Origin: a phage
NCBI GenBank assembly: GCA_025677605.1
Contig: GCA_025677605.1_4110.1
Reading direction: 5' to 3' (one strand)
Length of the DNA stretch: 64,000 nucleotides
Within the stretch, counting starts at the first letter, position 1, and the number at the start of each line of letters is the position of its first letter. The position numbers and the translations under genes were made by a program. Of this stretch, positions 1 through 54,714 are shown piece after piece. The notes under the pieces were generated by a model that was not told the origin of the DNA, ran no database searches, and worked only from the letters and a program-made list of their open reading frames with translations.

Positions 1-203
1 ACTTGATGCATAACTTCCCAAAGTTCAACAGAAGCTTGTCCACGACCCATAACTAAATCGGTTACAGCAGATACATATGCTTCTGGAAGTGAGTCACGAT
101 ACACAACAAGACAATGATCATGATCATCTGGAAGTGAACGCCAAACAACGAAAACACGAGAACCAGTATTACGAATTACACCTGTGTGACGAATAGCAGC
201 CAT
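1..203 (-). CDS. hypothetical protein, 5' part only (gene runs off the window start)
   Basis: ATG at 203-201 overlaps the stop of the upstream gene (TAATG coupling); frame stays open to position 1. Not in the ORF track because truncated. Confidence 0.3.
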   Translation of the reverse strand, partial: MAAIRHTGVIRNTGSRVFVVWRSLPDDHDHCLVVYRDSLPEAYVSAVTDLVMGRGQASVELWEVMHQ

Positions 204-445
204 TATTCTTCCCCTTCTGTACCAGCGGTATCTTGTGCTTGAGCAGCAGCTTCTTCACGTTCTTTGATATCAGCAAGTGCTTTATCAGCAAATTTAACGA
301 ACTTGGAAACAATTGGTGCTACGTTCACTAGTTCATCAACTTGAAACGCATTACGTGCAACCGCAGATTCCATAATACGAGCAGCGTTGATTAGGTCAAC
401 TAGGTCTAGGATTACTTCGTCTTGTGCATTGTTTTCAGTACTCAT
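203..445 (-). CDS. hypothetical protein (80 aa)
   Basis: ORF in track; ATG at 445 preceded by GGAGAG RBS; promoter-like element just upstream. Confidence 0.5.
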   Translation of the reverse strand: MSTENNAQDEVILDLVDLINAARIMESAVARNAFQVDELVNVAPIVSKFVKFADKALADIKEREEAAAQAQDTAGTEGEE

Positions 446-478: not shown

Positions 479-506
479 ATTATATCATAGTTAATTGGGT
501 TGTCCC
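479..506 (-). promoter_or_regulatory. sigma70-like promoter: -35 GGGACA (501-506), 16-nt spacer, extended -10 TGaTATAAT (479-487)
   Basis: Read on the minus strand as AATTGGGACA-N16-TATAAT; sits between the terminator at 511-542 and the ATG at 445. The same AATTGGGACA/TATAAT arrangement recurs at 30396-30423. Confidence 0.45.
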
Positions 507-510
507 AATT

Positions 511-542
511 ATAAAATAAAAGAGAACGACGAATCGTTCTCT
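511..542 (-). terminator. rho-independent terminator
   Basis: Perfect 8-bp stem AGAGAACG/CGTTCTCT with 6-nt loop (521-542), followed on the minus strand by a U-rich run (plus 511-520), about 10 nt after the stop of the VWA gene. Confidence 0.6.
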
Positions 543-552
543 ATATTTATTT

Positions 553-1956
553 TTACGAACGTTGGCGTTTTTTGTCCGCTTCATATTCGTAGTGAACAGT
601 TTCACCAAATGGTGCTACTTTGTTCGGGTTACTGTGAATCACAAACAGTGTTTTACAGTAGTTAGGATCACCCCATGACTGCCACGGTTCACCATCGGTA
701 AACATGATAAGCTGTTTAGGCTTATAATTGTCATGCTTCATGTGAACCCAAACTGCTTCAAAGTCAGTACCGCCACCACCTTTTACTGGATATTCAAGAA
801 TCTTACGTTCTTCACCAGTTTTATAATCCATCACAGTATAAACTTCAGTATCAAATGTCATGATACGAATTTTAAACTGCTTGAATTGTTTAGTGATGCC
901 TAGTACTTCACTGATGAAATCACGAAGCATATCTTCACTGATAGAGCCTGATGCATCGAGTGCAATTGCAATATCAATATCGTCATCTGGTTTCATGCCT
1001 GGGAAGATTGGATTCCCGTAGAATGAACCGTTAGAACCAAAACCAGCACCCCACGAACGGCGGCTTGGGCTTTGATAGGTCGCATCGGACTTCAACCAGC
1101 TACGAAGAGTACGTTGAAGTTTAGAACGCCAGTCAATTTTTGGTTCTTTAAAGTTATTGATCATACGAGCGATTTCAGCAGGAGTACCACCTGCACGAGC
1201 AGCATTCATCATTGCTGTTTTGAAATCGTCCATGTATTCACGTTTTTGTGCTTCAGATGCACCACCTTCACCATCTTGTGGTACATCGTGTTGGTCAATG
1301 GTAGTGCCTTTGCCTTTACCATTTTGGATATCACCAAAAGTACCGCGTGATTTACCTTCACCTTCACCACTACCAGATTGTGGTTGTCCTTCACCTTCAC
1401 CTTGTTCTTGTTTATCTTCTTCTTCTAGAAGAATATAAATCTCTTCTGCGGTCATACCATCATACTTCTTATCATACAACCATTGACTTTGAATCTTACC
1501 AATTTTTTCACGAACAATAATTTGGTTGATTGCATAGTCTGCTGCACGGTTGTATCGTTGTGGATCACGCATCCCACGACGAAGGAAGTGATCGTATGCA
1601 CAGTGAAGAATTTCATGACAGATAACTGCAATCAGGTTTTCATCAGTCAAACCTTCGGTCATTTCTTTCAATTGTTCTTCAGTTACTTCAGGATGCTTCT
1701 CACGAATTGCTTCTTCGTATGCTTCTTTCTTGCTTGGGTCTTGAATACCCATGATAAATTCTACGTTATAGAATAAATGTTTACCATCTACTGCTAAGGT
1801 ACGACACCATGTATTGTTTGCAACTGGACGCAGACGTGAAGCCAGTACACCAAAGAATGGAGCAGTTAACATCAGAGAAGTACGAGCAAGAATCAAACGG
1901 TCTTGGCATTCTTTCTGGAGTTGTGGTGTTACGTCGCTAAATTTCTTATCGGACAT
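553..1956 (-). CDS. VWA-domain protein with N-terminal HExxH metallopeptidase-like domain
   Basis: HEILH zinc-protease motif in the N-terminal half; C-terminal MIDAS-like motif (DIAIALDASGSISEDM). ATG at 1956 has a GAGGAAA RBS; the track's longer start at 2019 lacks one. Confidence 0.7.
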   Translation of the reverse strand: MSDKKFSDVTPQLQKECQDRLILARTSLMLTAPFFGVLASRLRPVANNTWCRTLAVDGKHLFYNVEFIMGIQDPSKKEAYEEAIREKHPEVTEEQLKEMTEGLTDENLIAVICHEILHCAYDHFLRRGMRDPQRYNRAADYAINQIIVREKIGKIQSQWLYDKKYDGMTAEEIYILLEEEDKQEQGEGEGQPQSGSGEGEGKSRGTFGDIQNGKGKGTTIDQHDVPQDGEGGASEAQKREYMDDFKTAMMNAARAGGTPAEIARMINNFKEPKIDWRSKLQRTLRSWLKSDATYQSPSRRSWGAGFGSNGSFYGNPIFPGMKPDDDIDIAIALDASGSISEDMLRDFISEVLGITKQFKQFKIRIMTFDTEVYTVMDYKTGEERKILEYPVKGGGGTDFEAVWVHMKHDNYKPKQLIMFTDGEPWQSWGDPNYCKTLFVIHSNPNKVAPFGETVHYEYEADKKRQRS

Positions 1957-2030
1957 GATATTTCCTCGTTTAGTTAAGATAAAAGAAGGATACCATGTGG
2001 CATCCTTCTTGTCAAACATTCTTTTAGTTA

Positions 2031-3356
2031 TTAACCAAGAGAACGTGCTTTGCGTACTAGGTCAGAGTACTTCATAACGAAGTCTTTGAACGCTGGAACA
2101 TCTTTGTACGCAATCGCTACCTTATGTTGAGTGATGGTACGAATTGCTAGTACTGCCAGTTCTGCCTGAGTTTCGGAGAAGTTACGGTCCAGGAAGGTGA
2201 TGAAGTTGTTGCACAGCTTGCCCCACTCTTCAACTGGAAGACGTTGTTCTTGCTTCTCATTGTACAGGTCGATAATTTTATAAACCAGATTCAGAGAGAT
2301 GAAGTAGTTCGCAGAAATATCCAGCGTTGCATCAATCTCTTTAATCTCACCCTGTAGGATGGACATAGTATCTGGTAGTTTAGATACGTTTTCTACGTAT
2401 TCGATATATTCAGTTGCTACACCTTCACCAACACGACCAGCGATTAGAGCACGGAACACTTCTTTATCAATGTTGTTGCCTTTCTTCAGGTCTTCGTAGC
2501 GTGCTACTGCTTCCCATGAACGTGGAGAAGTACCACCACTGTGAGAAGGATCTTGTGGGCTAAGGGTGTTGAAGTACTTAGCACCAGTGTTGTTGATGAA
2601 CGCAACAGTACCTGGGTTCAAACGCTTAGCAATCGCGTAATCGTCAATCCAATCTTGATGGTAAGGAACCATTTCGATGTGGGTCATACGGTCACGTAGT
2701 GGCGTTGCCAGAGAGAACGTTACGCCGCCATCAGTTTCACGGTTACCTGCTGCGAGAATCAGTGCAGTCTTAGGTAGCTTCATCTCACCAACACAACGGT
2801 CGAGGATTAGCTGATAAGACGCTGCCTGTACAATCGGCATAGCAGAGTTAATTTCGTCAAACAGGATAACACCTTTCCAATCTGGAGACAGTTTCAGTAC
2901 TTTAGGTGCTGCCCATACAACTGCTGTTTCAGCGATATAATCTTTAGCTGTTTCCAGTTCAGATTCAATCAGTTGTTTGCCATCCATATCCAGGAACACT
3001 TTTTCAGGGACTGGGATACCACGTAGGTCACTTGGTTCAATCTGTGACAAACGGAAGTCGATGAAGTTAGTGTCTTGGTCAATCAGTTTTGCTTCAAACG
3101 CTGCCAGTTCGCGGCGAAGTGCATCAGCATTTTCAGTATCAACTTCAATTTGTTGTTTCATGAACTCGATTTTAGCCAAGTTATCCTTACGAAGAGGATA
3201 GTTCTCGTCAGCGTATTGACGTGCAATCGCAGACTTACCGATACCAGGGCTACCCCAAATCATCAGACTATCCTGAATTTTATCTGCCAGAGCCATAGCC
3301 ATTTTTGCTTTCTTAGGAGTCAGTTTTACGTTCAGGATATCTTGTTGTTCGCTCAT
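2031..3356 (-). CDS. MoxR/CbbQ-like AAA+ ATPase
   Basis: Walker A GSPGIGKS and Walker B ILFDEINSA; 441 aa; RBS AAAAGGAAAA before ATG at 3356; immediately upstream of, and co-oriented with, the VWA gene. Confidence 0.8.
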   Translation of the reverse strand: MSEQQDILNVKLTPKKAKMAMALADKIQDSLMIWGSPGIGKSAIARQYADENYPLRKDNLAKIEFMKQQIEVDTENADALRRELAAFEAKLIDQDTNFIDFRLSQIEPSDLRGIPVPEKVFLDMDGKQLIESELETAKDYIAETAVVWAAPKVLKLSPDWKGVILFDEINSAMPIVQAASYQLILDRCVGEMKLPKTALILAAGNRETDGGVTFSLATPLRDRMTHIEMVPYHQDWIDDYAIAKRLNPGTVAFINNTGAKYFNTLSPQDPSHSGGTSPRSWEAVARYEDLKKGNNIDKEVFRALIAGRVGEGVATEYIEYVENVSKLPDTMSILQGEIKEIDATLDISANYFISLNLVYKIIDLYNEKQEQRLPVEEWGKLCNNFITFLDRNFSETQAELAVLAIRTITQHKVAIAYKDVPAFKDFVMKYSDLVRKARSLG

Positions 3357-3523
3357 GTGTATTTTCCTTTTGTTGGATAAAAAACTAGGTTTATATTATA
3401 ACCAATCCGTTGGCAAAAGTAAAGGAACTGTGTTAAAAGTATTTTAACTTATCAGTTCCTTATCTTCAGTGAATCATCCGTGTGTTTAAAAAGGTCAATC
3501 TTGTTTGCCGTCTTGATGTGGTC

Positions 3524-3551
3524 ATTATATCACATCGTTCAGGCTTGTCAA
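3524..3551 (-). promoter_or_regulatory. consensus sigma70 promoter P-A1: TTGACA-N16-TGaTATAAT
   Basis: Minus strand: -35 TTGACA (3546-3551), 16-nt spacer, -10 TATAAT (3524-3529) with extended TG; A-rich UP-like tract upstream; about 170 nt upstream of the AAA+ ATPase start. Confidence 0.6.
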
Positions 3552-3616
3552 CAACTTTTTTTCTTTCTTTTTCAATCTCACATCTTGTGATTTTGAAATC
3601 TTGCTTCGTGACGTTC

Positions 3617-3644
3617 ATTATATCACGTTAATCTGTACTGTCAA
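3617..3644 (-). promoter_or_regulatory. consensus sigma70 promoter P-A2: TTGACA-N16-TGaTATAAT
   Basis: Minus strand: -35 TTGACA (3639-3644), 16-nt spacer, -10 TATAAT (3617-3622); shares the 12-mer GTGATATAATGA with P-A1, 93 bp away. Confidence 0.6.
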
Positions 3645-3708
3645 CATCTTTTTCATTTTTATTTTCGAAGCGTTCTACATATGCATCGAAAATAACTGCT
3701 TGAAATCA

Positions 3709-4458: not shown

Positions 4459-5403
4459 TTACTTATCTCCTAGAAACTTATTGTACTTACTTTGGAGACT
4501 TTCAAAAATGTCTTCTACAGATTCGTCTTCTTCAGACTCTTCTTCTTCAGCTTCGTAAACATTAAGTGGGTTATCACCTAGAGCAGTACCAGGTGCTTTT
4601 GGCTTGAATTCATGTACACGATGTACATTGCCTTCATTATCATATTCTTCTGGATTTGGAACATTGTCAAGTTCTTCTTGAACAACACGTCTCCAGTAGA
4701 ATTGGTTTCCTTTAGGAACTACGATGAAGTTATCACCTTCAACACCATTGGTTTTAGCTTGACCATCTTGAACAGCATCGTATTCAGAACGGAAAGGACC
4801 AAAATCAGTTGTGTCAAGTGCTGGACTCTCTTCTTCTAGACTTAGGTCAGGAAGGATTTGAGATTCAGTAACTTCTTCTTCAATTTCTTCTTCATCTTCA
4901 TCTACTGCTTCAGTAACAGGAAGACCAGCTAGAGACATCATACGACCGAAATCGAATTCTTCTTCAATAACTTCTTCGTCTTCATCTGATAGAGTAGATT
5001 CTAGCTTAGGTTGACCACTCATGTCAAGAGAAAGTTCATCTTCTTCACCAGGAGCTTCAACATCGATAACTGGAATGTCAGCTTCACCTTCTGCATCAGC
5101 ACCGAAATCAGTTACTGAACCAGATAGATCATCAACAGCTTGTGCTAGTGGGTCTTCTTCACCAATTTCTGGAACAGGTGCTACATCAGCACCCATTTCT
5201 GGAGCAACAACTTCTGGTTCTTCCGCTGAACCACCAAAAGAACCGAAGTCAAGTGGAGCGATTGGAGAAACAGTAGGTGCTACGGATGATTGCTTTTCAG
5301 CTTGACCAGCTAGTGCAAGCATACGGGATAGTGCTTCTAGATCATCAGATTCTAGACCAGCAATATCAATTTTAACCTGTGCTTCATTAATTTTTTTTGC
5401 CAT
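4459..5403 (-). CDS. highly acidic protein (about 314 aa)
   Basis: Extremely D/E-rich with long acidic runs; ATG at 5403 (the track's 5409 start is TTG); AAGGA upstream. Confidence 0.5.
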   Translation of the reverse strand: MAKKINEAQVKIDIAGLESDDLEALSRMLALAGQAEKQSSVAPTVSPIAPLDFGSFGGSAEEPEVVAPEMGADVAPVPEIGEEDPLAQAVDDLSGSVTDFGADAEGEADIPVIDVEAPGEEDELSLDMSGQPKLESTLSDEDEEVIEEEFDFGRMMSLAGLPVTEAVDEDEEEIEEEVTESQILPDLSLEEESPALDTTDFGPFRSEYDAVQDGQAKTNGVEGDNFIVVPKGNQFYWRRVVQEELDNVPNPEEYDNEGNVHRVHEFKPKAPGTALGDNPLNVYEAEEEESEEDESVEDIFESLQSKYNKFLGDK

Positions 5404-5422
5404 TTTCAATAAATCCTTTTAG

Positions 5423-6895
5423 TTATTCATCATTATTATTTAATGATTTTAAAATCTGCACTACTTCATCTTTATTACCAGCTAATAGAATGTCAGCGGC
5501 TAGTAAAGAAACCTTATCACCACGGGTTAGCAGTACTGTAATCTTTTTCGCATAAGGAGAAGATTTAATTTGTGATGCAAGTGCTTCCATACCATTCCCT
5601 TGCTCAACTTCTGGTTCAGGGGTCGGTTCTGGTTTAGGCTCTTCCTTTGGTTCTTCTTTCGGTTCAGCCTGTGCTTCAGGTTTAGGTTCTTCTTGTGCTT
5701 TTGGTTCTTCTTGTGGTGCGTCATTTGGTTTAGGTTCATTCTCTGATTTAGAAGATTCAAAACGATCCAGAATAGCTTGTGCAGCACTTTTTGGAATCAT
5801 TTTACCATCTGGACCAATGAATCGATCACCACCAACGTATACATATTCTTTACCTTTCTTAGAAGTAACTTTTGTTCCGATTTTCATTGCACCGGATTCG
5901 TTATGTTTAAGAATAGCTTGTTGTGCAGCACGCTCAATACTTTGTGCAGCACCTGAATTTAATTGTTTTTTAGTTTCAACATCAAACCAAGCACCACGTT
6001 GTTTAGCATAAGTTTTGTTTTTACCAGAAGTAAAACGGTATCCATCTGGTACACCAACTGCTGGTTCATCTTCAGCTTCGGTAACTTTTTCTGGCTTCTG
6101 TACAGAACCAAAACGTTGTTCTTCACCAGTACTAGCACCAGTTAAAGAAGGGAAATCTTCAGGATTTGCCTTAACGAACTGTGAATATGCTTGGAAAATA
6201 GCTTTCGAGCCTTGTTCAGATACTACCACATTACCGTCATTATCGCAAAATTCTTTACCGTTCCATTCAGAACGAACATTACCTTGAATCAATACAGATT
6301 TCAATGGGATTAGCTTATTGTTTGTAGATAATTGGCGAGCAATGCGAAGACCTTCTTCACTTAGCTTACGTGTCATTTCTGGGCTTACAGGGCGACCGCT
6401 TTTTAGTTCAACAAAGCGATGACTGTTAGGAATAAACTTATATCCTTGAACTACCATACCTGCTGGGATAGAAATATCTTGTGCATGTGGGGGTAGAATA
6501 TAAAATTTCAAAGTACTCCACTCTTTTTGTAGAGTTTCTTTGGAAACTTGATATACACGTTGTTCATCACCCATTAGTTCTGTAATCACTTCACTTTCAG
6601 AAAGAATAGTACCGTCATCACTATGGAAGCGGCTTTCACCGATGAACGTACACTCTTTTCCATTGTGAAGATAGTTTTCGCCAATTTTAAATGCAGTGTT
6701 TGATTTATTGTTGTGCTCAACAATTTGTTGTCGAGCACAAGCATACATATTTGGATATTTTTGTGGATCAACCATCATCATATTACTATCATTGAACCAC
6801 ATACCTTCTAAGAAGACATATTTTGCTCCAGTATGGGAAGTATAGATATACCCATTAGGAACTACCGTACTTTCAGTACTGAATAATTTAAGCAT
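5423..6895 (-). CDS. hypothetical protein with internal repeats and an EPK-rich linker (490 aa)
   Basis: RBS AAGGGGA before ATG at 6895; four copies of a G-K-x-Y/T-x(3)-G-x(2)-F-x(2)-DG-like motif; low-complexity P/E/K linker near the C-terminus. Confidence 0.5.
   Translation of the reverse strand: MLKLFSTESTVVPNGYIYTSHTGAKYVFLEGMWFNDSNMMMVDPQKYPNMYACARQQIVEHNNKSNTAFKIGENYLHNGKECTFIGESRFHSDDGTILSESEVITELMGDEQRVYQVSKETLQKEWSTLKFYILPPHAQDISIPAGMVVQGYKFIPNSHRFVELKSGRPVSPEMTRKLSEEGLRIARQLSTNNKLIPLKSVLIQGNVRSEWNGKEFCDNDGNVVVSEQGSKAIFQAYSQFVKANPEDFPSLTGASTGEEQRFGSVQKPEKVTEAEDEPAVGVPDGYRFTSGKNKTYAKQRGAWFDVETKKQLNSGAAQSIERAAQQAILKHNESGAMKIGTKVTSKKGKEYVYVGGDRFIGPDGKMIPKSAAQAILDRFESSKSENEPKPNDAPQEEPKAQEEPKPEAQAEPKEEPKEEPKPEPTPEPEVEQGNGMEALASQIKSSPYAKKITVLLTRGDKVSLLAADILLAGNKDEVVQILKSLNNNDE
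5590..5720 (-). repeat. low-complexity coding repeat (E-P-K rich)
   Basis: Reiterated gaa/cca/aaa-type codons encoding EEPKPE-like units inside CDS 5423-6895. Confidence 0.4.
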
Positions 6896-31180: not shown

Positions 31181-31233
31181 TTATTTTCTCCATTAAAAAA
31201 GGACTTGATTTCTCAAGTCCCTATTATAACATA

Positions 31234-31845
31234 TTACTCATGTTTATCCAACAGCTTTTGTGCCTTTTTTAATGCTTTCATGTGTCGCCCGTACTCACGA
31301 ACATGCCACAGATGATCGTTATCCCATAGCTCTTGACGCAATCTACGTTCTTCGAGCATTTCTGGTGTAGGACGTTTACTTTCCTTCTCAATCTTATTGA
31401 AATAACGATTCATATGTTCTTCAAGAAGATTACGTCCCTTCACTTTATCAAGAAATTCATCAACTGTTTCAGTTTTATTTGAACGCAACTGATTACATCT
31501 CGCACACATAGTATTGAAGTTTGACTCCAAATCAGCACCACCTTTAGATGCAAGATGATTATGATCTACAGTCATCATAACTTCATAAAGACCACATACT
31601 GCATACACATTTAAATGCGGTTTACCATATACCGGATCACTACAGTTAGAACGTTCGATTCGAACTTCTGTAGCCTCGATGCCACAAGCAACGCACTTAC
31701 AATTCTTAACGAATGTTAGTACTTTTTGTGGAAAGTATCTGAAAGTAATACCATTATAAGTATAACGTTTCATTTTGGTACTAGTATGATTGAGTTCATC
31801 TAGTAAACTCAATTTGGTTACATAATAAACATGATATTTAGACAT
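31234..31845 (-). CDS. HNH endonuclease (free-standing, homing-endonuclease-like)
   Basis: HNH core TVDHNHLASKGG...NFNTMCARCN with a Cys-rich zinc-binding region; 203 aa. Confidence 0.7.
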   Translation of the reverse strand: MSKYHVYYVTKLSLLDELNHTSTKMKRYTYNGITFRYFPQKVLTFVKNCKCVACGIEATEVRIERSNCSDPVYGKPHLNVYAVCGLYEVMMTVDHNHLASKGGADLESNFNTMCARCNQLRSNKTETVDEFLDKVKGRNLLEEHMNRYFNKIEKESKRPTPEMLEERRLRQELWDNDHLWHVREYGRHMKALKKAQKLLDKHE

Positions 31846-39816: not shown

Positions 39817-39845
39817 ATTATACGGATAAAAGAAAAGCCTGTCAA
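39817..39845 (-). promoter_or_regulatory. consensus sigma70 promoter TTGACA-N17-TATAAT
   Basis: Minus strand: -35 TTGACA (39840-39845) inside the terminator hairpin, 17-nt spacer, -10 TATAAT (39817-39822), about 20 nt upstream of the ATG at 39794. Confidence 0.55.
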
Positions 39846-54457: not shown

Positions 54458-54646
54458 TCAAAAACCTTTTTGTGCAACCAGTTCACGATATTGTGCACGT
54501 GTTAGTACACCTTGCTTACGTAGAGACTGAAGCCCACTTAAAGTTTCAGCTTTACGTAGCTCATAAGTGCGTTGTTCTTTGGATTGAATAACTTTCACTT
54601 TTTTAACTTTAACTTCTGGTTCTTTTTTCTTAGGTTGTTTAGCCAT
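54458..54646 (-). CDS. small basic protein, possible nucleic-acid binding (62 aa)
   Basis: K/R-rich N-terminus (MAKQPKKKEPEVKVKKVKV); RBS GAAGGAAG before ATG at 54646. Confidence 0.45.
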   Translation of the reverse strand: MAKQPKKKEPEVKVKKVKVIQSKEQRTYELRKAETLSGLQSLRKQGVLTRAQYRELVAQKGF

Positions 54647-54714
54647 GATTTACTTCCTTCTTCGATAATGGTGTGTTCATTATAGCAATGAACACATTTA
54701 ATGTCAATAATAGA

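What the first reader, a model, noticed from the sequence alone, without database searches (positions are those of the whole stretch)
553..3644. MoxR-type AAA+ ATPase plus VWA/HExxH protein pair driven by two tandem perfect-consensus promoters
The ATPase (GSPGIGKS, ILFDEINSA) and its partner (HEILH zinc-protease motif plus a C-terminal MIDAS-like DxSGS) form a classical MoxR-VWA chaperone-type pair whose role in phages is not established. Two TTGACA-N16-TGaTATAAT promoters 93 bp apart, sharing the 12-mer GTGATATAATGA, sit about 170 and about 260 nt upstream, implying very strong early expression.
Basis: partly seen in the sequence, partly recalled or inferred. Interest (0 to 1): 0.55.

Follow-up and report, generated by a model that had tools for sequence, protein, structure and literature searches.

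The report
Phage MoxR–VWA protease operon, attenuated leader
This jumbo-phage locus holds a previously published ATPase plus VWA-metalloprotease gene pair of untested function; the two perfect promoters are real, but a conserved terminator hairpin sits between them and the genes, so strong early expression of the genes does not follow.

Summary
On the minus strand lie an AAA+ ATPase (3356..2031) and a zincin-HExxH/VWA-MIDAS protein (true start 1956, end 553). Upstream are two perfect TTGACA-N16-TGATATAAT promoters, a 52-nt tandem duplicate spaced 93 nt apart.

The window is 99.6% identical to Escherichia phage A4, a Rak2-like Asteriusvirus. The pair is homologous to N4 gp24/gp25. Iyer et al. 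2021 already described it for this phage group as a MoxR-vWA pair with an N-terminal metallopeptidase.

Catalytic and MIDAS residues are invariant across homologues. The ATPase model best matches NorQ and CbbQ.

New here is the cis architecture:
- A covarying terminator hairpin and a small hairpin with an invariant YGGA loop lie between the promoters and the ATG. The order stop-promoter-terminator-gene holds in five genera.
- A second terminator-like hairpin separates the two genes in 48 of 56 viral loci, against 1 of 31 low-identity genome-contig loci, where the genes mostly abut. This would give more ATPase than VWA protein.

Promoter class and gene neighbours (thymidylate synthase, as in N4) suggest a non-late unit, not a clearly virion-assembly one.

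"Very strong early expression" of the genes is therefore doubtful. The promoters may mainly produce short leader RNAs. Function remains untested.

The parts
3645..3666 (-). A-rich UP-element-like stretch upstream of P1
   Evidence: 82% A+T in the 22 nt before the -35. It is part of the 52-nt tandem repeat D1.
3617..3644 (-). Promoter P1: TTGACA-N16-TATAAT with extended -10 TG
   Evidence: 12/12 match. Conserved in Asteriusvirus and Alcyoneusvirus (RaK2, Muenster). A 5-nt inverted repeat, CGTGA/TCACG, flanks the -10.
3570..3598 (-). Imperfect 13-bp hairpin in the P1 transcript, just before P2's A-tract
   Evidence: Inverted repeat I3, 85% complementary with a 3-nt loop. The sequence block is conserved in Asteriusvirus. 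Function unknown.
3524..3551 (-). Promoter P2: TTGACA-N16-TATAAT with extended -10 TG; tandem duplicate of P1
   Evidence: 12/12 match. Present in all six Asteriusvirus lineages aligned and absent in RaK2/Muenster. A 6-nt inverted repeat, GATGTG/CACATC, flanks the -10.
3471..3490 (-). Conserved leader block TTTAAACACACGGATGATTC (first GGA site, GGA at 3479..3477)
   Evidence: A UUAA(G/A)..N6-9..GGA(U/A) pattern recurs at the same place in five genera.
3415..3461 (-). T1: leader terminator-like hairpin AAGGAACTG...CAGTTCCTT followed by TTTACTTTT
   Evidence: MFE -13.4 kcal/mol, z -3.8. Annotated as a terminator in phage G17. 96.9% of cells are paired across 11 distinct sequences, with two pairs changed on both sides.
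3402..3413 (-). Mini-hairpin CCAA[CGGA]TTGG with an invariant YGGA loop, directly after T1
   Evidence: The stem covaries (AU/CG/UA at one pair) while GGA is invariant. It is thermodynamically weak, -3.3 kcal/mol. It is the only intergenic hairpin of this kind in the window.
3395..3423 (-). P3: weaker promoter-like site TTTACT-N17-TATAAT proximal to the ATPase gene
   Evidence: 10/12 match. The -10 is kept in Asteriusvirus (TGGTATAAT in JNE01), is TATCAT in RaK2, and is not recognisable in Munch, CBB or Eneladusvirus.
2031..3356 (-). MoxR-class AAA+ ATPase gene (441 aa), N4 gp24 homologue
   Evidence: phrog_1297 at 6.5e-106. Walker A/B, N205, R223 and R279 are invariant. AF2 model pLDDT 86; best PDB matches are NorQ and CbbQ.
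1973..2010 (-). T2: intercistronic terminator-like hairpin (12 bp) plus TTTTATCTT
   Evidence: -18.0 kcal/mol, z -5.7. An equivalent hairpin with unrelated sequence is present in 48/56 viral loci, against 1/31 low-identity genome-contig loci.
553..1956 (-). Zincin (HExxH) metallopeptidase-VWA(MIDAS) protein gene (467 aa), N4 gp25 homologue
511..542 (-). T3: terminator ending the operon
   Evidence: 9-bp stem plus TTTTATTTT; -11.4 kcal/mol, z -4.3. Annotated as a terminator in G17.
479..507 (-). Next promoter (TGGGACA-N13-TGATATAAT) for the downstream small genes and thymidylate synthase block
   Evidence: CBB has TGAAACG-N13-TGGTATAAT at the same place, listed as Porf_218 in that paper's Table S6.

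Best explanation
The locus is a self-contained, non-late transcription unit of a Rak2-like jumbo phage. It encodes a two-component ATP-driven protein-remodelling protease.

Proposed mechanism (inferred from solved MoxR-VWA systems, not shown here):
- The ATPase forms a MoxR-type AAA+ ring.
- The partner docks on the ring through its C-terminal VWA domain.
- The partner's intact MIDAS grips an acidic residue of a target protein.
- Its N-terminal HExxH zincin domain cuts the target while the ring pulls on or remodels it.

Proposed expression (sequence features shown, activity inferred):
- Transcription starts at host sigma-70-type extended -10 promoters. In Asteriusvirus this promoter has been duplicated in tandem (P1, P2).
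- The transcripts first meet a conserved intrinsic terminator (T1). Most therefore end as short leader RNAs of roughly 105 and 200 nt, and only read-through transcripts, or transcripts from the weak proximal site P3, reach the genes.
- A second terminator-like hairpin between the two genes (T2) reduces transcription of the VWA gene. This fits a ring of ATPase subunits acting with fewer adaptor-proteases.

Most likely biological setting (inferred): the pre-assembly, replication or nucleotide-metabolism phase, acting on a non-virion target. A dedicated virion-assembly role is less likely.
For: Identity of the proteins:
- Pfam and PHROG hits.
- Invariant catalytic, MIDAS and AAA+ residues.
- Confident models.
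- The top structural matches are the NorQ hexamer and the NorQ-NorD VWA complexes, plus CbbQ. The VWA fold includes NorD, BchD and midasin MIDAS matches.

Obligate pairing:
- ATPase then VWA in the same order in essentially all viral loci with enough downstream DNA.
- An ATPase on the same strand within a few kb upstream in about 60 of 67 genome-contig loci; within 1.5 kb in 40.

Own promoters and terminators:
- Promoters.
- T1 covaries and folds at -13.4 kcal/mol. G17's annotators also called it a terminator.
- The unusual order stop-promoter-terminator-gene is kept in Asterius-, Alcyoneus-, Munch-like, Mimas- and Eneladusvirus, although both the promoter class and the hairpin sequence changed.
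- A T2-type hairpin is present in 48/56 viral loci against 1/31 low-identity genome-contig loci.

Non-late, non-virion setting:
- Promoters are of the TTGACA, TGGGACA or TGAAACG extended -10 classes, not the ATAAATA late motif reported for CBB. TATAAATA is not enriched in the window.
- The pair is followed by small genes and thymidylate synthase in Rak2-like phages and in N4, where it sits among dCTP deaminase, thymidylate synthase and rIIA/B.
- A Mesorhizobium element places it between a helicase, SSB and an integrase. A Nitratidesulfovibrio copy is chromosomal.
- CBB_216 and CBB_217 are absent from the portion of the CBB virion mass-spectrometry table retrieved, which jumps from CBB_214 to CBB_224.
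Against: - No experiment on any member was found.
- The N-terminal domain has no solved structural relative in the top lists. Peptidase activity therefore rests on the HExxH motif and the Pfam family name.
- The ATPase itself scores below Pfam's thresholds for AAA_3 (17.7 against 27 bits). A profile search of PDB sequences gives only a weak midasin hit at 6e-4.
- In Rak2-like phages the pair sits inside the roughly 70-kb structural-gene region directly after three virion-protein genes. That placement favours the published assembly hypothesis.
- T1's T-tract is interrupted (TTTACTTTT), so termination efficiency is unknown. T1 could simply be the terminator of the upstream late operon.
- The stoichiometry argument for T2 is inference by analogy.
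Confidence: 0.55

Rival explanations
1. Virion-assembly chaperone and maturation protease, the published proposal. The MoxR ring and VWA co-chaperone assist assembly of a head or tail structure, and the fused metallopeptidase processes structural proteins, as suggested by analogy with the Acidianus two-tailed virus MoxR-VWA pair.
For: - Iyer et al. 2021 propose exactly this for group 2.2 jumbo phages.
- In all Rak2-like genera the pair directly follows three virion-protein genes and lies within the structural region.
- A chaperone or protease would not be expected in the virion proteome, so its absence from the retrieved CBB list is neutral.
Against: - The unit has its own sigma-70-type promoters and is insulated by T1 from the upstream structural operon.
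- No late-type ATAAATA motif was seen by eye in the leader sequences retrieved.
- In N4-like phages the pair lies in the middle-gene, nucleotide-metabolism region, far from structural genes.
- Homologues occur next to helicase and SSB in a rhizobial element, and in a chromosomal Desulfovibrio-type context with no virion genes nearby.
- Within Rak2-like phages the pair is syntenic with thymidylate synthase rather than being separable from it.
Confidence: 0.27
2. P1 and P2 chiefly make abundant short non-coding RNAs that end at T1. These would share their terminator with the upstream late operon, like promoter-bearing 3'-UTR-derived sRNAs. The RNAs, or the read-through leader, would carry GGA motifs that bind a regulator such as host CsrA. 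This could titrate the regulator or put ATPase translation under its control. This reading is compatible with the best explanation for the proteins.
For: - Perfect tandem promoters are followed within about 60-105 nt by a covarying terminator.
- The order promoter-before-terminator is conserved in five genera, whereas the normal order terminator-then-promoter is used at the operon's 3' end.
- Leader motifs UUAA(G/A) and GGA(U/A) are conserved. There is an invariant YGGA in the loop of a covarying mini-hairpin, plus GGA in the Shine-Dalgarno sequence.
- ACACGGAUGA resembles the CsrA SELEX core ACARGGAUGU. That consensus is recalled from memory and was not tested.
- The 50-codon ORF in the leader starts inside P1's -10, and the aligned relatives carry indels across it (by-eye reading), so the leader is probably non-coding.
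Against: - No Rfam family matches.
- The mini-hairpin is very weak, -1.1 to -3.3 kcal/mol, and no better than shuffles.
- There are only two to four GGA sites.
- No other copy occurs in the 64-kb window.
- The covariation rests on 11 related sequences.
- T1 may only be the late operon's terminator.
- In Asteriusvirus the mini-hairpin lies in the spacer of P3, so it would be absent from P3 transcripts.
Confidence: 0.25
3. Metal-cofactor insertase or enzyme activase. Like NorQ-NorD, CbbQ-CbbO or the chelatase I/D subunits, the pair would remodel a phage or host metalloenzyme, for example one in nucleotide metabolism. The HExxH domain would act as a metal-binding module rather than a protease.
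For: - The closest solved structures are NorQ-NorD and CbbQ; BchD's VWA domain also matches.
- The pair is recurrently close to nucleotide-metabolism genes: thymidylate synthase and dCTP deaminase.
Against: - HExxH with an invariant glutamate (E115) is the catalytic signature of zincin peptidases, and Pfam's family is a putative metallopeptidase.
- No candidate client enzyme is consistently adjacent.
- Thymidylate synthase needs no metal. This is general knowledge and was not tested.
Confidence: 0.1
4. Host-takeover or counter-defence protease. The pair would recognise and destroy a host protein, such as a defence or housekeeping factor, early in infection.
For: - Sigma-70-type promoters are usable by unmodified host polymerase.
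- The pair is widespread and patchy across unrelated lytic phage groups: 823 of 50,697 phage records, including Rak2-like, N4-like, rV5-like and Thermus phages.
Against: - No PADLOC match, and no literature link to anti-defence.
- The proteins are strongly conserved in sequence and order across very different hosts, unlike typical fast-evolving counter-defence genes.
- Cellular homologues exist in housekeeping-looking contexts.
Confidence: 0.1

Closest known systems
MoxR AAA+ / vWA-metallopeptidase pair of 'group 2.2' jumbo phages (Iyer, Anantharaman, Krishnan, Burroughs, Aravind 2021, Viruses 13:63; PMC7824862)
   Same: By description this is the same gene pair in the same phage clade: a MoxR ATPase plus a vWA protein with an N-terminal metallopeptidase. 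The paper's example accessions were not retrieved or aligned here. The window is 99.6% identical to phage A4, whose record already calls the genes 'ATPase' and 'VWA domain-containing protein'.
   Different: In the passages retrieved, that paper gives only a domain-level prediction and a virion-assembly guess. The promoters, the leader terminator, the GGA hairpin, the intercistronic hairpin, and the synteny with thymidylate synthase and N4 do not appear in those passages. The context evidence here leans away from a purely assembly role.
Bacteriophage N4 gp24 (AAA ATPase) / gp25 (vWFA) and their N4-like homologues
   Same: Homologous pair in the same order. The RaK2 and Muenster records cite N4 gp24/gp25, and tblastn reaches N4-like phages. 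Function is unknown there too. Thymidylate synthase lies a few genes downstream in both.
   Different: The N4 proteins are shorter (352 and 380 aa). They lie in the middle region, which according to the roseophage paper is transcribed by N4 RNAP II. N4 has only a 29-nt gap upstream, no leader terminator, and a 167-nt intercistronic gap in which the scan found no terminator-like site.
Cellular MoxR-VWA machines: NorQ-NorD, CbbQ-CbbO, RavA-ViaA, magnesium chelatase BchI-BchD
   Same: AAA+ ring plus a VWA/MIDAS adaptor encoded side by side. NorQ and CbbQ are the best structural matches to the ATPase model, and NorD and BchD VWA domains match the partner.
   Different: As far as I recall, none of these adaptors carries an HExxH zincin domain. 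Sequence identity is about 12-14%. The phage ATPase has a roughly 95-residue insert between Walker A and Walker B and a long helical C-terminal extension. The clients of the cellular systems are metalloenzymes, whereas here the client is unknown.
Acidianus two-tailed virus MoxR-type ATPase and VWA protein (tail development), as cited by Iyer et al.
   Same: A viral MoxR-VWA pair that the cited paper reports as required for virion morphogenesis.
   Different: It is an archaeal virus and its pair has no peptidase domain. No homology was tested here. The analogy is the only basis for the assembly hypothesis.
Transcription attenuators, promoter-bearing 3'-UTR-derived sRNAs, and CsrA-type GGA-loop binding sites (general knowledge, recalled)
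   Same: A strong promoter is followed closely by an intrinsic terminator that is shared with the upstream operon. GGA motifs occur in a hairpin loop and in the Shine-Dalgarno sequence.
   Different: No alternative antiterminator structure, no known ligand or protein partner, and no Rfam family were found. There are far fewer GGA sites than in CsrB-type sponges.
RpoD-like and 'divergent RpoD-like' (TGAAACG-N13-TGGTATAAT) promoters of Rak2-like phages (Buttimer et al. 2017, PMC5259590)
   Same: P1 and P2 have the same geometry: a 7-mer, 13 nt, then TGnTATAAT, with an upstream A-tract. CBB, GAP32, XbC2 and Eneladusvirus carry the TGAAAC-type version at the homologous position.
   Different: The CBB study extracted only 100 bp upstream of each gene. 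In the part of its Table S6 retrieved, no Porf_216 entry appears between Porf_193 and Porf_218. Tandem duplication of a full-consensus copy was seen only in the Asteriusvirus lineages compared here.

Membership tests
MoxR-class AAA+ ATPase | AAA+ core motifs: Walker A GxxGxGKS/T, Walker B hhhhDE, sensor-1 Asn, conserved arginines | tested here: met
   G38, K41, S42, E168, N205, R223 and R279 are invariant and D167 is nearly invariant (90% or more) in 41 homologues.
MoxR-class AAA+ ATPase | Match to the MoxR-type Pfam models (AAA_3 PF07726 / AAA_5 PF07728) above the curated threshold | tested here: not met
   For the window protein, AAA_3 scores 17.7 bits against a cut-off of 27, and AAA scores 21.0 against 21.2. 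Homologues at about 32% identity (E about 1e-50) do carry PF07726, PF07728 and PF20030. Membership therefore holds only by transitive homology.
MoxR-class AAA+ ATPase | Fold closest to solved MoxR members | tested here: met
   The top Foldseek PDB matches are NorQ (9qh8, 9qh4, 9qhd; E 3e-7, target-normalised TM 0.54-0.62) and CbbQ 6l1q. RFC, sigma-54 activators and McrB rank similarly close behind.
MoxR-class AAA+ ATPase | Encoded next to a VWA/MIDAS partner | tested here: met
   Adjacent in the same order in the window and in essentially all complete viral loci. An ATPase lies within a few kb upstream on the same strand in about 60 of 67 genome loci.
MoxR-class AAA+ ATPase | Hexameric ring with ATPase activity that binds the VWA partner | not testable with these tools
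   Needs biochemistry or cryo-EM.
VWA domain with MIDAS | DxSxS...T...D metal-ion-dependent adhesion site | tested here: met
   D334, S336, G337, S338, T397 and D421 are invariant in 40 sequences.
VWA domain with MIDAS | Rossmann-like VWA fold | tested here: met
Zincin metallopeptidase (Pfam PF13203, DUF2201_N) | HExxH on an active-site helix, conserved across the family | tested here: met
   PF13203 at 2.6e-36. H114, E115 and H118 are invariant and lie in helix 105-124 of the model, preceded by a small beta-sheet.
Zincin metallopeptidase (Pfam PF13203, DUF2201_N) | Identified third zinc ligand and similarity to a solved zincin | tested here: inconclusive
Zincin metallopeptidase (Pfam PF13203, DUF2201_N) | Proteolytic activity | not testable with these tools
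   No experimental report was found.
Sigma-70 extended -10 promoter | TTGACA, 16-18 nt, TGnTATAAT, with an A/T-rich upstream region | tested here: met
   Both sites score 12/12 with TG, and they are far rarer than chance.
Sigma-70 extended -10 promoter | Initiates transcription in vivo; timing | not testable with these tools
   No transcriptome for an Asteriusvirus was found.
Intrinsic (Rho-independent) terminator: T1, T2, T3 | G+C-containing hairpin followed by a U-tract, kept by compensatory change | tested here: met
   Energies are -13.4, -18.0 and -11.4 kcal/mol, with z from -3.8 to -5.7. T1 covaries. T2 has unrelated sequences at the same position in many phages. Caveat: the T1 U-tract is interrupted, and the tail criterion used was lenient.
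CsrA/RsmA-type binding site | GGA in the loop of a short hairpin, a further GGA site, and one overlapping the Shine-Dalgarno sequence | tested here: inconclusive
   The sequence pattern is present and the stem covaries. However, the hairpin is no more stable than shuffles, the consensus is recalled from memory, and binding is untested.

The most novel reading that the evidence does not exclude
The tandem consensus promoters are not mainly there to express the ATPase. Together with terminator T1 they would form a conserved phage gene for short, abundant leader RNAs of roughly 105 and 200 nt. These RNAs, and the GGA-loop hairpin just downstream, would form a regulatory RNA module: an attenuator and/or a CsrA-type protein-binding RNA. 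The module would gate a dose-controlled (ATPase above VWA) remodelling protease that acts in the replication phase. Such a cis-regulatory design has not been described for jumbo phages or for MoxR-VWA systems.
Probability: 0.22. Interest if true: 0.55.

Novelty: already known. Interest (0 to 1): 0.3.

Why it matters
The MoxR-VWA-zincin pair is one of the more widespread phage gene pairs without a tested function. Homologues of the ATPase occur in 823 of 50,697 phage records, including Rak2-like jumbo phages, N4-like and rV5-like phages.

Knowing whether it processes virion parts, matures an enzyme or attacks a host protein would fill a real gap. It could also reveal a new type of ATP-dependent, adaptor-fused protease.

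This analysis adds three things:
- a corrected gene start;
- evidence that the catalytic sites are universally kept;
- a testable expression model: strong promoters throttled by a leader terminator, and an intercistronic hairpin found in viral loci but almost never in the low-identity genome-contig loci, which could set subunit ratios.

It also cautions against reading "perfect promoter" as "high gene expression". The protein pair itself is already in the literature, so the finding as stated is not new.

Tried and rejected
Searches that found nothing useful:
- Rfam, on the whole window at gathering thresholds and on the leader at a permissive E-value: nothing credible.
- NCBIfam, PADLOC and PDB sequence searches with the single proteins: no informative hit.
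- Profile searches against PDB sequences: only weak midasin and integrin touches.
- Both fold searches with the partner model returned only VWA domains, so the zincin subfamily could not be placed.
- Literature searches for DUF2201, phage MoxR/vWA, N4 gp24/gp25 and an Asteriusvirus transcriptome: no functional or timing data. The PA5oct omics paper does not mention the pair.

Ideas tested and dropped:
- A T4-type late promoter (TATAAATA) upstream of the genes: the motif is not enriched in the window (6 found, 9.9 expected) and none of the six lies near the locus.
- The 50-codon ORF 3618..3466 in the leader: rejected as coding. It begins inside P1's -10, and the aligned relatives carry indels across it (by-eye reading).
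- A regulon of GGA-loop hairpins: no enrichment (33 found against 26 ± 7 in shuffles), and the leader copy is the only intergenic [CT]GGA example.
- An antiterminator alternative structure for T1: none is evident in the fold.
- The 'homing endonuclease' downstream of the ATPase in the PA5oct-like phage Cassandra as a mislabelled VWA partner: it is not one, having no HMM hit, no HExxH and no MIDAS.
- Pairing between the T1 U-tract and the Shine-Dalgarno region (inverted repeat I5): judged uninformative, because purine-rich and pyrimidine-rich tracts pair trivially.

Full report
**Where the window comes from.** The 3.7 kb around the finding is 99.6% identical to Escherichia phage A4 (ON286972), genus Asteriusvirus. 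It is 85-88% identical to 121Q, PBECO4, G17 and other Rak2-like jumbo phages, with weaker DNA matches in Klebsiella, Salmonella, Erwinia and Serratia phages. Almost all genes in the window run on the minus strand.

**Checking the observation.** The two ORFs and all four quoted motifs are present.
- Both promoters are perfect 12/12 TTGACA-N16-TATAAT sites with the extended -10 TG.
- Both share GTGATATAATGA and have A-rich upstream stretches.
- Their -10 elements end 261 and 168 nt before the ATPase ATG.
- Only four perfect sites occur in 64 kb, against 0.21 expected.
- The two are a 52-nt tandem duplicate, 73% identical, spaced 93 nt apart.
- P1 is conserved as far as RaK2 and Muenster (Alcyoneusvirus). 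P2 is present in all six Asteriusvirus lineages aligned but not in RaK2.
- One correction: the partner gene starts at 1956 (MSDKKF, GAGG upstream), as annotated in A4 and G17. The ORF's first ATG at 2019 lies upstream of a hairpin.

**The proteins.**

ATPase (441 aa):
- It hits PHROG 1297 (1e-106) but only grazes Pfam AAA and AAA_3.
- Homologues down to about 32% identity carry AAA_3, AAA_5 and bpMoxR domains.
- Walker A, Walker B, a sensor-1 Asn and conserved arginines are invariant or nearly so in 41 sequences.
- An AlphaFold model (pLDDT 86) best matches the NorQ hexamer, the NorQ-NorD VWA complexes and CbbQ. Clamp loaders, sigma-54 activators and McrB follow.
- A profile search of PDB sequences gives only a weak midasin hit.

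Partner (467 aa):
- It matches PF13203 (putative metallopeptidase) and PF09967 (VWA-like).
- H114-E115-x-x-H118 and the complete MIDAS (D334, S336, G337, S338, T397, D421) are invariant in 40 sequences.
- The N-terminal domain found no solved relative in the top lists.

PHROG 1314, to which the partner belongs, is labelled 'HNH endonuclease'. That mislabel has spread into many GenBank records, including N4 gp25.

**What is already known.**
- Iyer et al. 2021 state that group 2.2 jumbo phages contain a MoxR AAA+ ATPase-vWA pair whose vWA protein is fused to an N-terminal metallopeptidase. By analogy with Acidianus two-tailed virus, they propose a role in virion assembly with proteolytic processing (PMC7824862).
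- RaK2's and Muenster's annotators equate the genes with N4 gp24/gp25.
- The roseophage paper lists N4 gp24 (AAA ATPase) and gp25 (vWFA) as function unknown.
- I found no experimental work.

**Distribution and linkage.**
- tblastn finds the ATPase in 823 of 50,697 phage records: Rak2-like, N4-like, rV5-like, PA5oct-like, Thermus and others.
- In 80 IMG/VR loci plus the GenBank loci, the VWA gene follows the ATPase wherever enough DNA is present.
- In 67 genome-contig loci with enough upstream DNA, an ATPase lies upstream on the same strand in about 60 by my count. The script counted 40 within 1.5 kb.
- Contexts differ:
  - N4: dCTP deaminase, a thymidylate synthase homologue and rIIA/B follow the pair.
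  - A Mesorhizobium element: a helicase and SSB before the pair, an integrase after it.
  - Nitratidesulfovibrio: a chromosomal site between phosphate-transporter genes and AdoHcy hydrolase.
- In Rak2-like phages the order is conserved across genera: three virion-protein genes, a hypothetical gene, the pair, four or five small genes, then thymidylate synthase.
- In the part of the CBB virion mass-spectrometry table retrieved, CBB_213 and CBB_214 are listed and the next entry is CBB_224, so CBB_216 and CBB_217 do not appear.

**The leader.** Between P2 and the ATG lies a long hairpin, AAGGAACTG...CAGTTCCTT followed by TTTACTTTT.
- It folds at -13.4 kcal/mol (z -3.8). G17's annotators called it a terminator.
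- The same layout recurs in RaK2/Muenster, Salmonella phage Munch, CBB, GAP32, XbC2, Kaldavass, pEa_SNUABM_50 and fHe-Yen9-03. The layout is: stop codon, promoter, a leader of about 35-60 nt, hairpin plus T-tract, about 50-60 nt, ATG.
- The hairpin sequence differs between these phages (AAAGCACTGA/TCAGTGCTTT; AAGGCACTG/CAGTGCCTT; GGACTG/CAGTCC).
- Counted on 11 distinct sequences, with the loops replaced by GAAA to keep register, the 9-bp stem is 96.9% paired with two pairs changed on both sides. No shuffle of 500 reached the observed covariation score. The sample is small and phylogenetically related.

**The mini-hairpin.**
- Immediately after the T-tract sits a 4-5-bp hairpin. Its loop always contains YGGA and its stem covaries (CCAA/TTGG, CAAA/TTTG, GCTT/AAGC).
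- It is thermodynamically marginal and is the only intergenic example in the window.
- A second GGA lies in a conserved block before the hairpin, and a third in the Shine-Dalgarno sequence.

**Promoter class changes with genus.**
- TTGACA in Asteriusvirus and RaK2.
- TGGGACA in Munch.
- TGAAAC(G/A) in Mimasvirus and Eneladusvirus.
- All are followed by 13 nt and TGnTATAAT.
- The TGAAACG class was described for CBB and linked there to DNA-synthesis genes. Late genes were assigned an ATAAATA motif.
- In the part of CBB's Table S6 retrieved, no entry for gene 216 appears between Porf_193 and Porf_218. That study extracted only 100 bp upstream of each gene.
- The normal order, terminator then promoter, is used at the 3' end of the operon in both the window and CBB. 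The reversed order upstream therefore looks deliberate.

**The intercistronic hairpin.**
- A 12-bp hairpin (-18 kcal/mol) followed by TTTTATCTT lies between the ATPase stop codon and the VWA start.
- Hairpins of unrelated sequence occupy the same position in CBB, GAP32, Eneladusvirus, Munch and a Vibrio jumbo phage.
- With a lenient scan, 48 of 56 viral loci and 7 of 8 phage-like MAG contigs have one. Only 1 of 31 low-identity genome-contig loci does, and there the genes mostly abut or overlap.
- In many environmental phages the hairpin is followed by TTATAATAT rather than a clean T-tract. It may therefore act in processing or stability, or overlap a promoter, rather than purely in termination.

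**Interpretation.**

Shown:
- the identity and conservation of the two proteins;
- their obligate linkage;
- the promoters;
- three terminator-like hairpins, two of them with comparative support.

Inferred:
- The ATPase forms a ring that docks the VWA domain, as NorQ does with NorD.
- The MIDAS grips a client, and the zincin domain cleaves it.
- T1 throttles or gates expression from the strong promoters.
- T2 lowers VWA output relative to ATPase output.

Biological role:
- The assembly hypothesis rests on gene position in Rak2-like phages and on an archaeal analogy.
- Against it stand the non-late promoter classes, insulation from the structural operon by T1, the shared neighbourhood with thymidylate synthase in both Rak2-like and N4-like phages, and the replication-module and chromosomal contexts of more distant homologues.
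- I therefore favour a pre-assembly, non-virion client. Confidence is moderate, and assembly remains the main rival.

**Verdict.** The cis-regulatory layout is the new and testable part.

Noticed in passing
window 54679-54707 (-), and the P1/P2 -10 regions at 3617-3630 and 3524-3537 (-): All three TTGACA-class extended -10 promoters have a perfect inverted repeat bracketing the -10 box: TGTGTTC/GAACACA, CGTGA/TCACG and GATGTG/CACATC, with arms of 7, 5 and 6 nt. The chance of arms at least that long is about 0.005, 0.09 and 0.02 respectively. Four of nine intergenic TGnTATAAT sites have arms of 5 nt or more, against about 0.8 expected. The arm sequences differ, so a common operator is unlikely. 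This remains unexplained.
   Followed up: partly
window 39817-39845 (-): The fourth perfect promoter overlaps a terminator hairpin, AAGCCTGTC-TAT-TGACAGGCTT followed by TTCTTTT, whose descending arm contains the -35 TTGACA. This is a compact terminator/promoter junction.
   Followed up: no
window 31190-31251 (-): A TTGGATA-N13-TGTTATAAT promoter-like site is followed at once by the strong hairpin AGGGACTTGA-GAAA-TCAAGTCCTTTTTT. This is another promoter-then-terminator arrangement with almost no leader.
   Followed up: no
window 487, 19350 and 30404 (- strand; start of TGnTATAAT): A second promoter class, TGGGA(C/A)A-N13-TGnTATAAT, recurs in intergenic regions. It appears to be the Asteriusvirus counterpart of the TGAAACG/TGGAACG class reported for phage CBB.
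   Followed up: partly
window 553-1956 (-); GenBank records of CBB, GAP32-like phages, N4 gp25 and others: The VWA/zincin protein is widely mis-annotated as 'HNH endonuclease'. PHROG 1314 carries that name, and it appears in many records, including N4 gp25 and CBB gp217. No nuclease domain is detectable.
   Followed up: yes
window 1-445 and relatives (L001, L002, L010, L181): In Rak2-like phages and in N4, the pair is followed within 3-4 kb by a thymidylate synthase gene. The five records checked are A4, G17, CBB, N4 and the roseophages; in N4 a dCTP deaminase also follows. This may be an old shared module linking the pair to nucleotide metabolism.
   Followed up: partly
L021, L026, L029, L032-L034, L038-L047, L055, L059, L074, L075, L081, L089 (between the ATPase and VWA genes): In a large environmental phage group the intercistronic hairpin is a 7-bp G+C stem closed mostly by a UUCG-type tetraloop. 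Its stem sequence varies freely (CACCTCC, CAGGACC, CACCGCC, CAGGGTC), and it is nearly always followed by TTATAATAT. This is strong natural covariation for a structured element of unknown role.
   Followed up: no
L098 440-700 (Vibrio phage 2.275.O, upstream of its ATPase): A direct repeat of about 33 nt, TGTGTTATAACAATATGTAAGCAGTTAAGCGCA, occurs twice about 145 nt apart upstream of the ATPase gene, each copy followed by a hairpin. This echoes the tandem promoter duplication in Asteriusvirus, with unrelated sequence.
   Followed up: no
window 4459-5409 and 5423-6895 (-): The upstream virion-protein genes encode extremely acidic, low-complexity proteins. One has a Pro/Glu/Lys-rich (PEPK-like) repeat region that weakly hits the trypanosome procyclin family.
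   Followed up: no
window 54462-54646 (-): The perfect promoter at 54707 drives a 61-codon ORF encoding a very basic, lysine-rich protein (MAKQPKKKEPEVKVKK...). It is followed by about 130 nt of non-coding sequence with a terminator-like hairpin (CATCCCTGTC...GGCAGGGATTTTTT).
   Followed up: no
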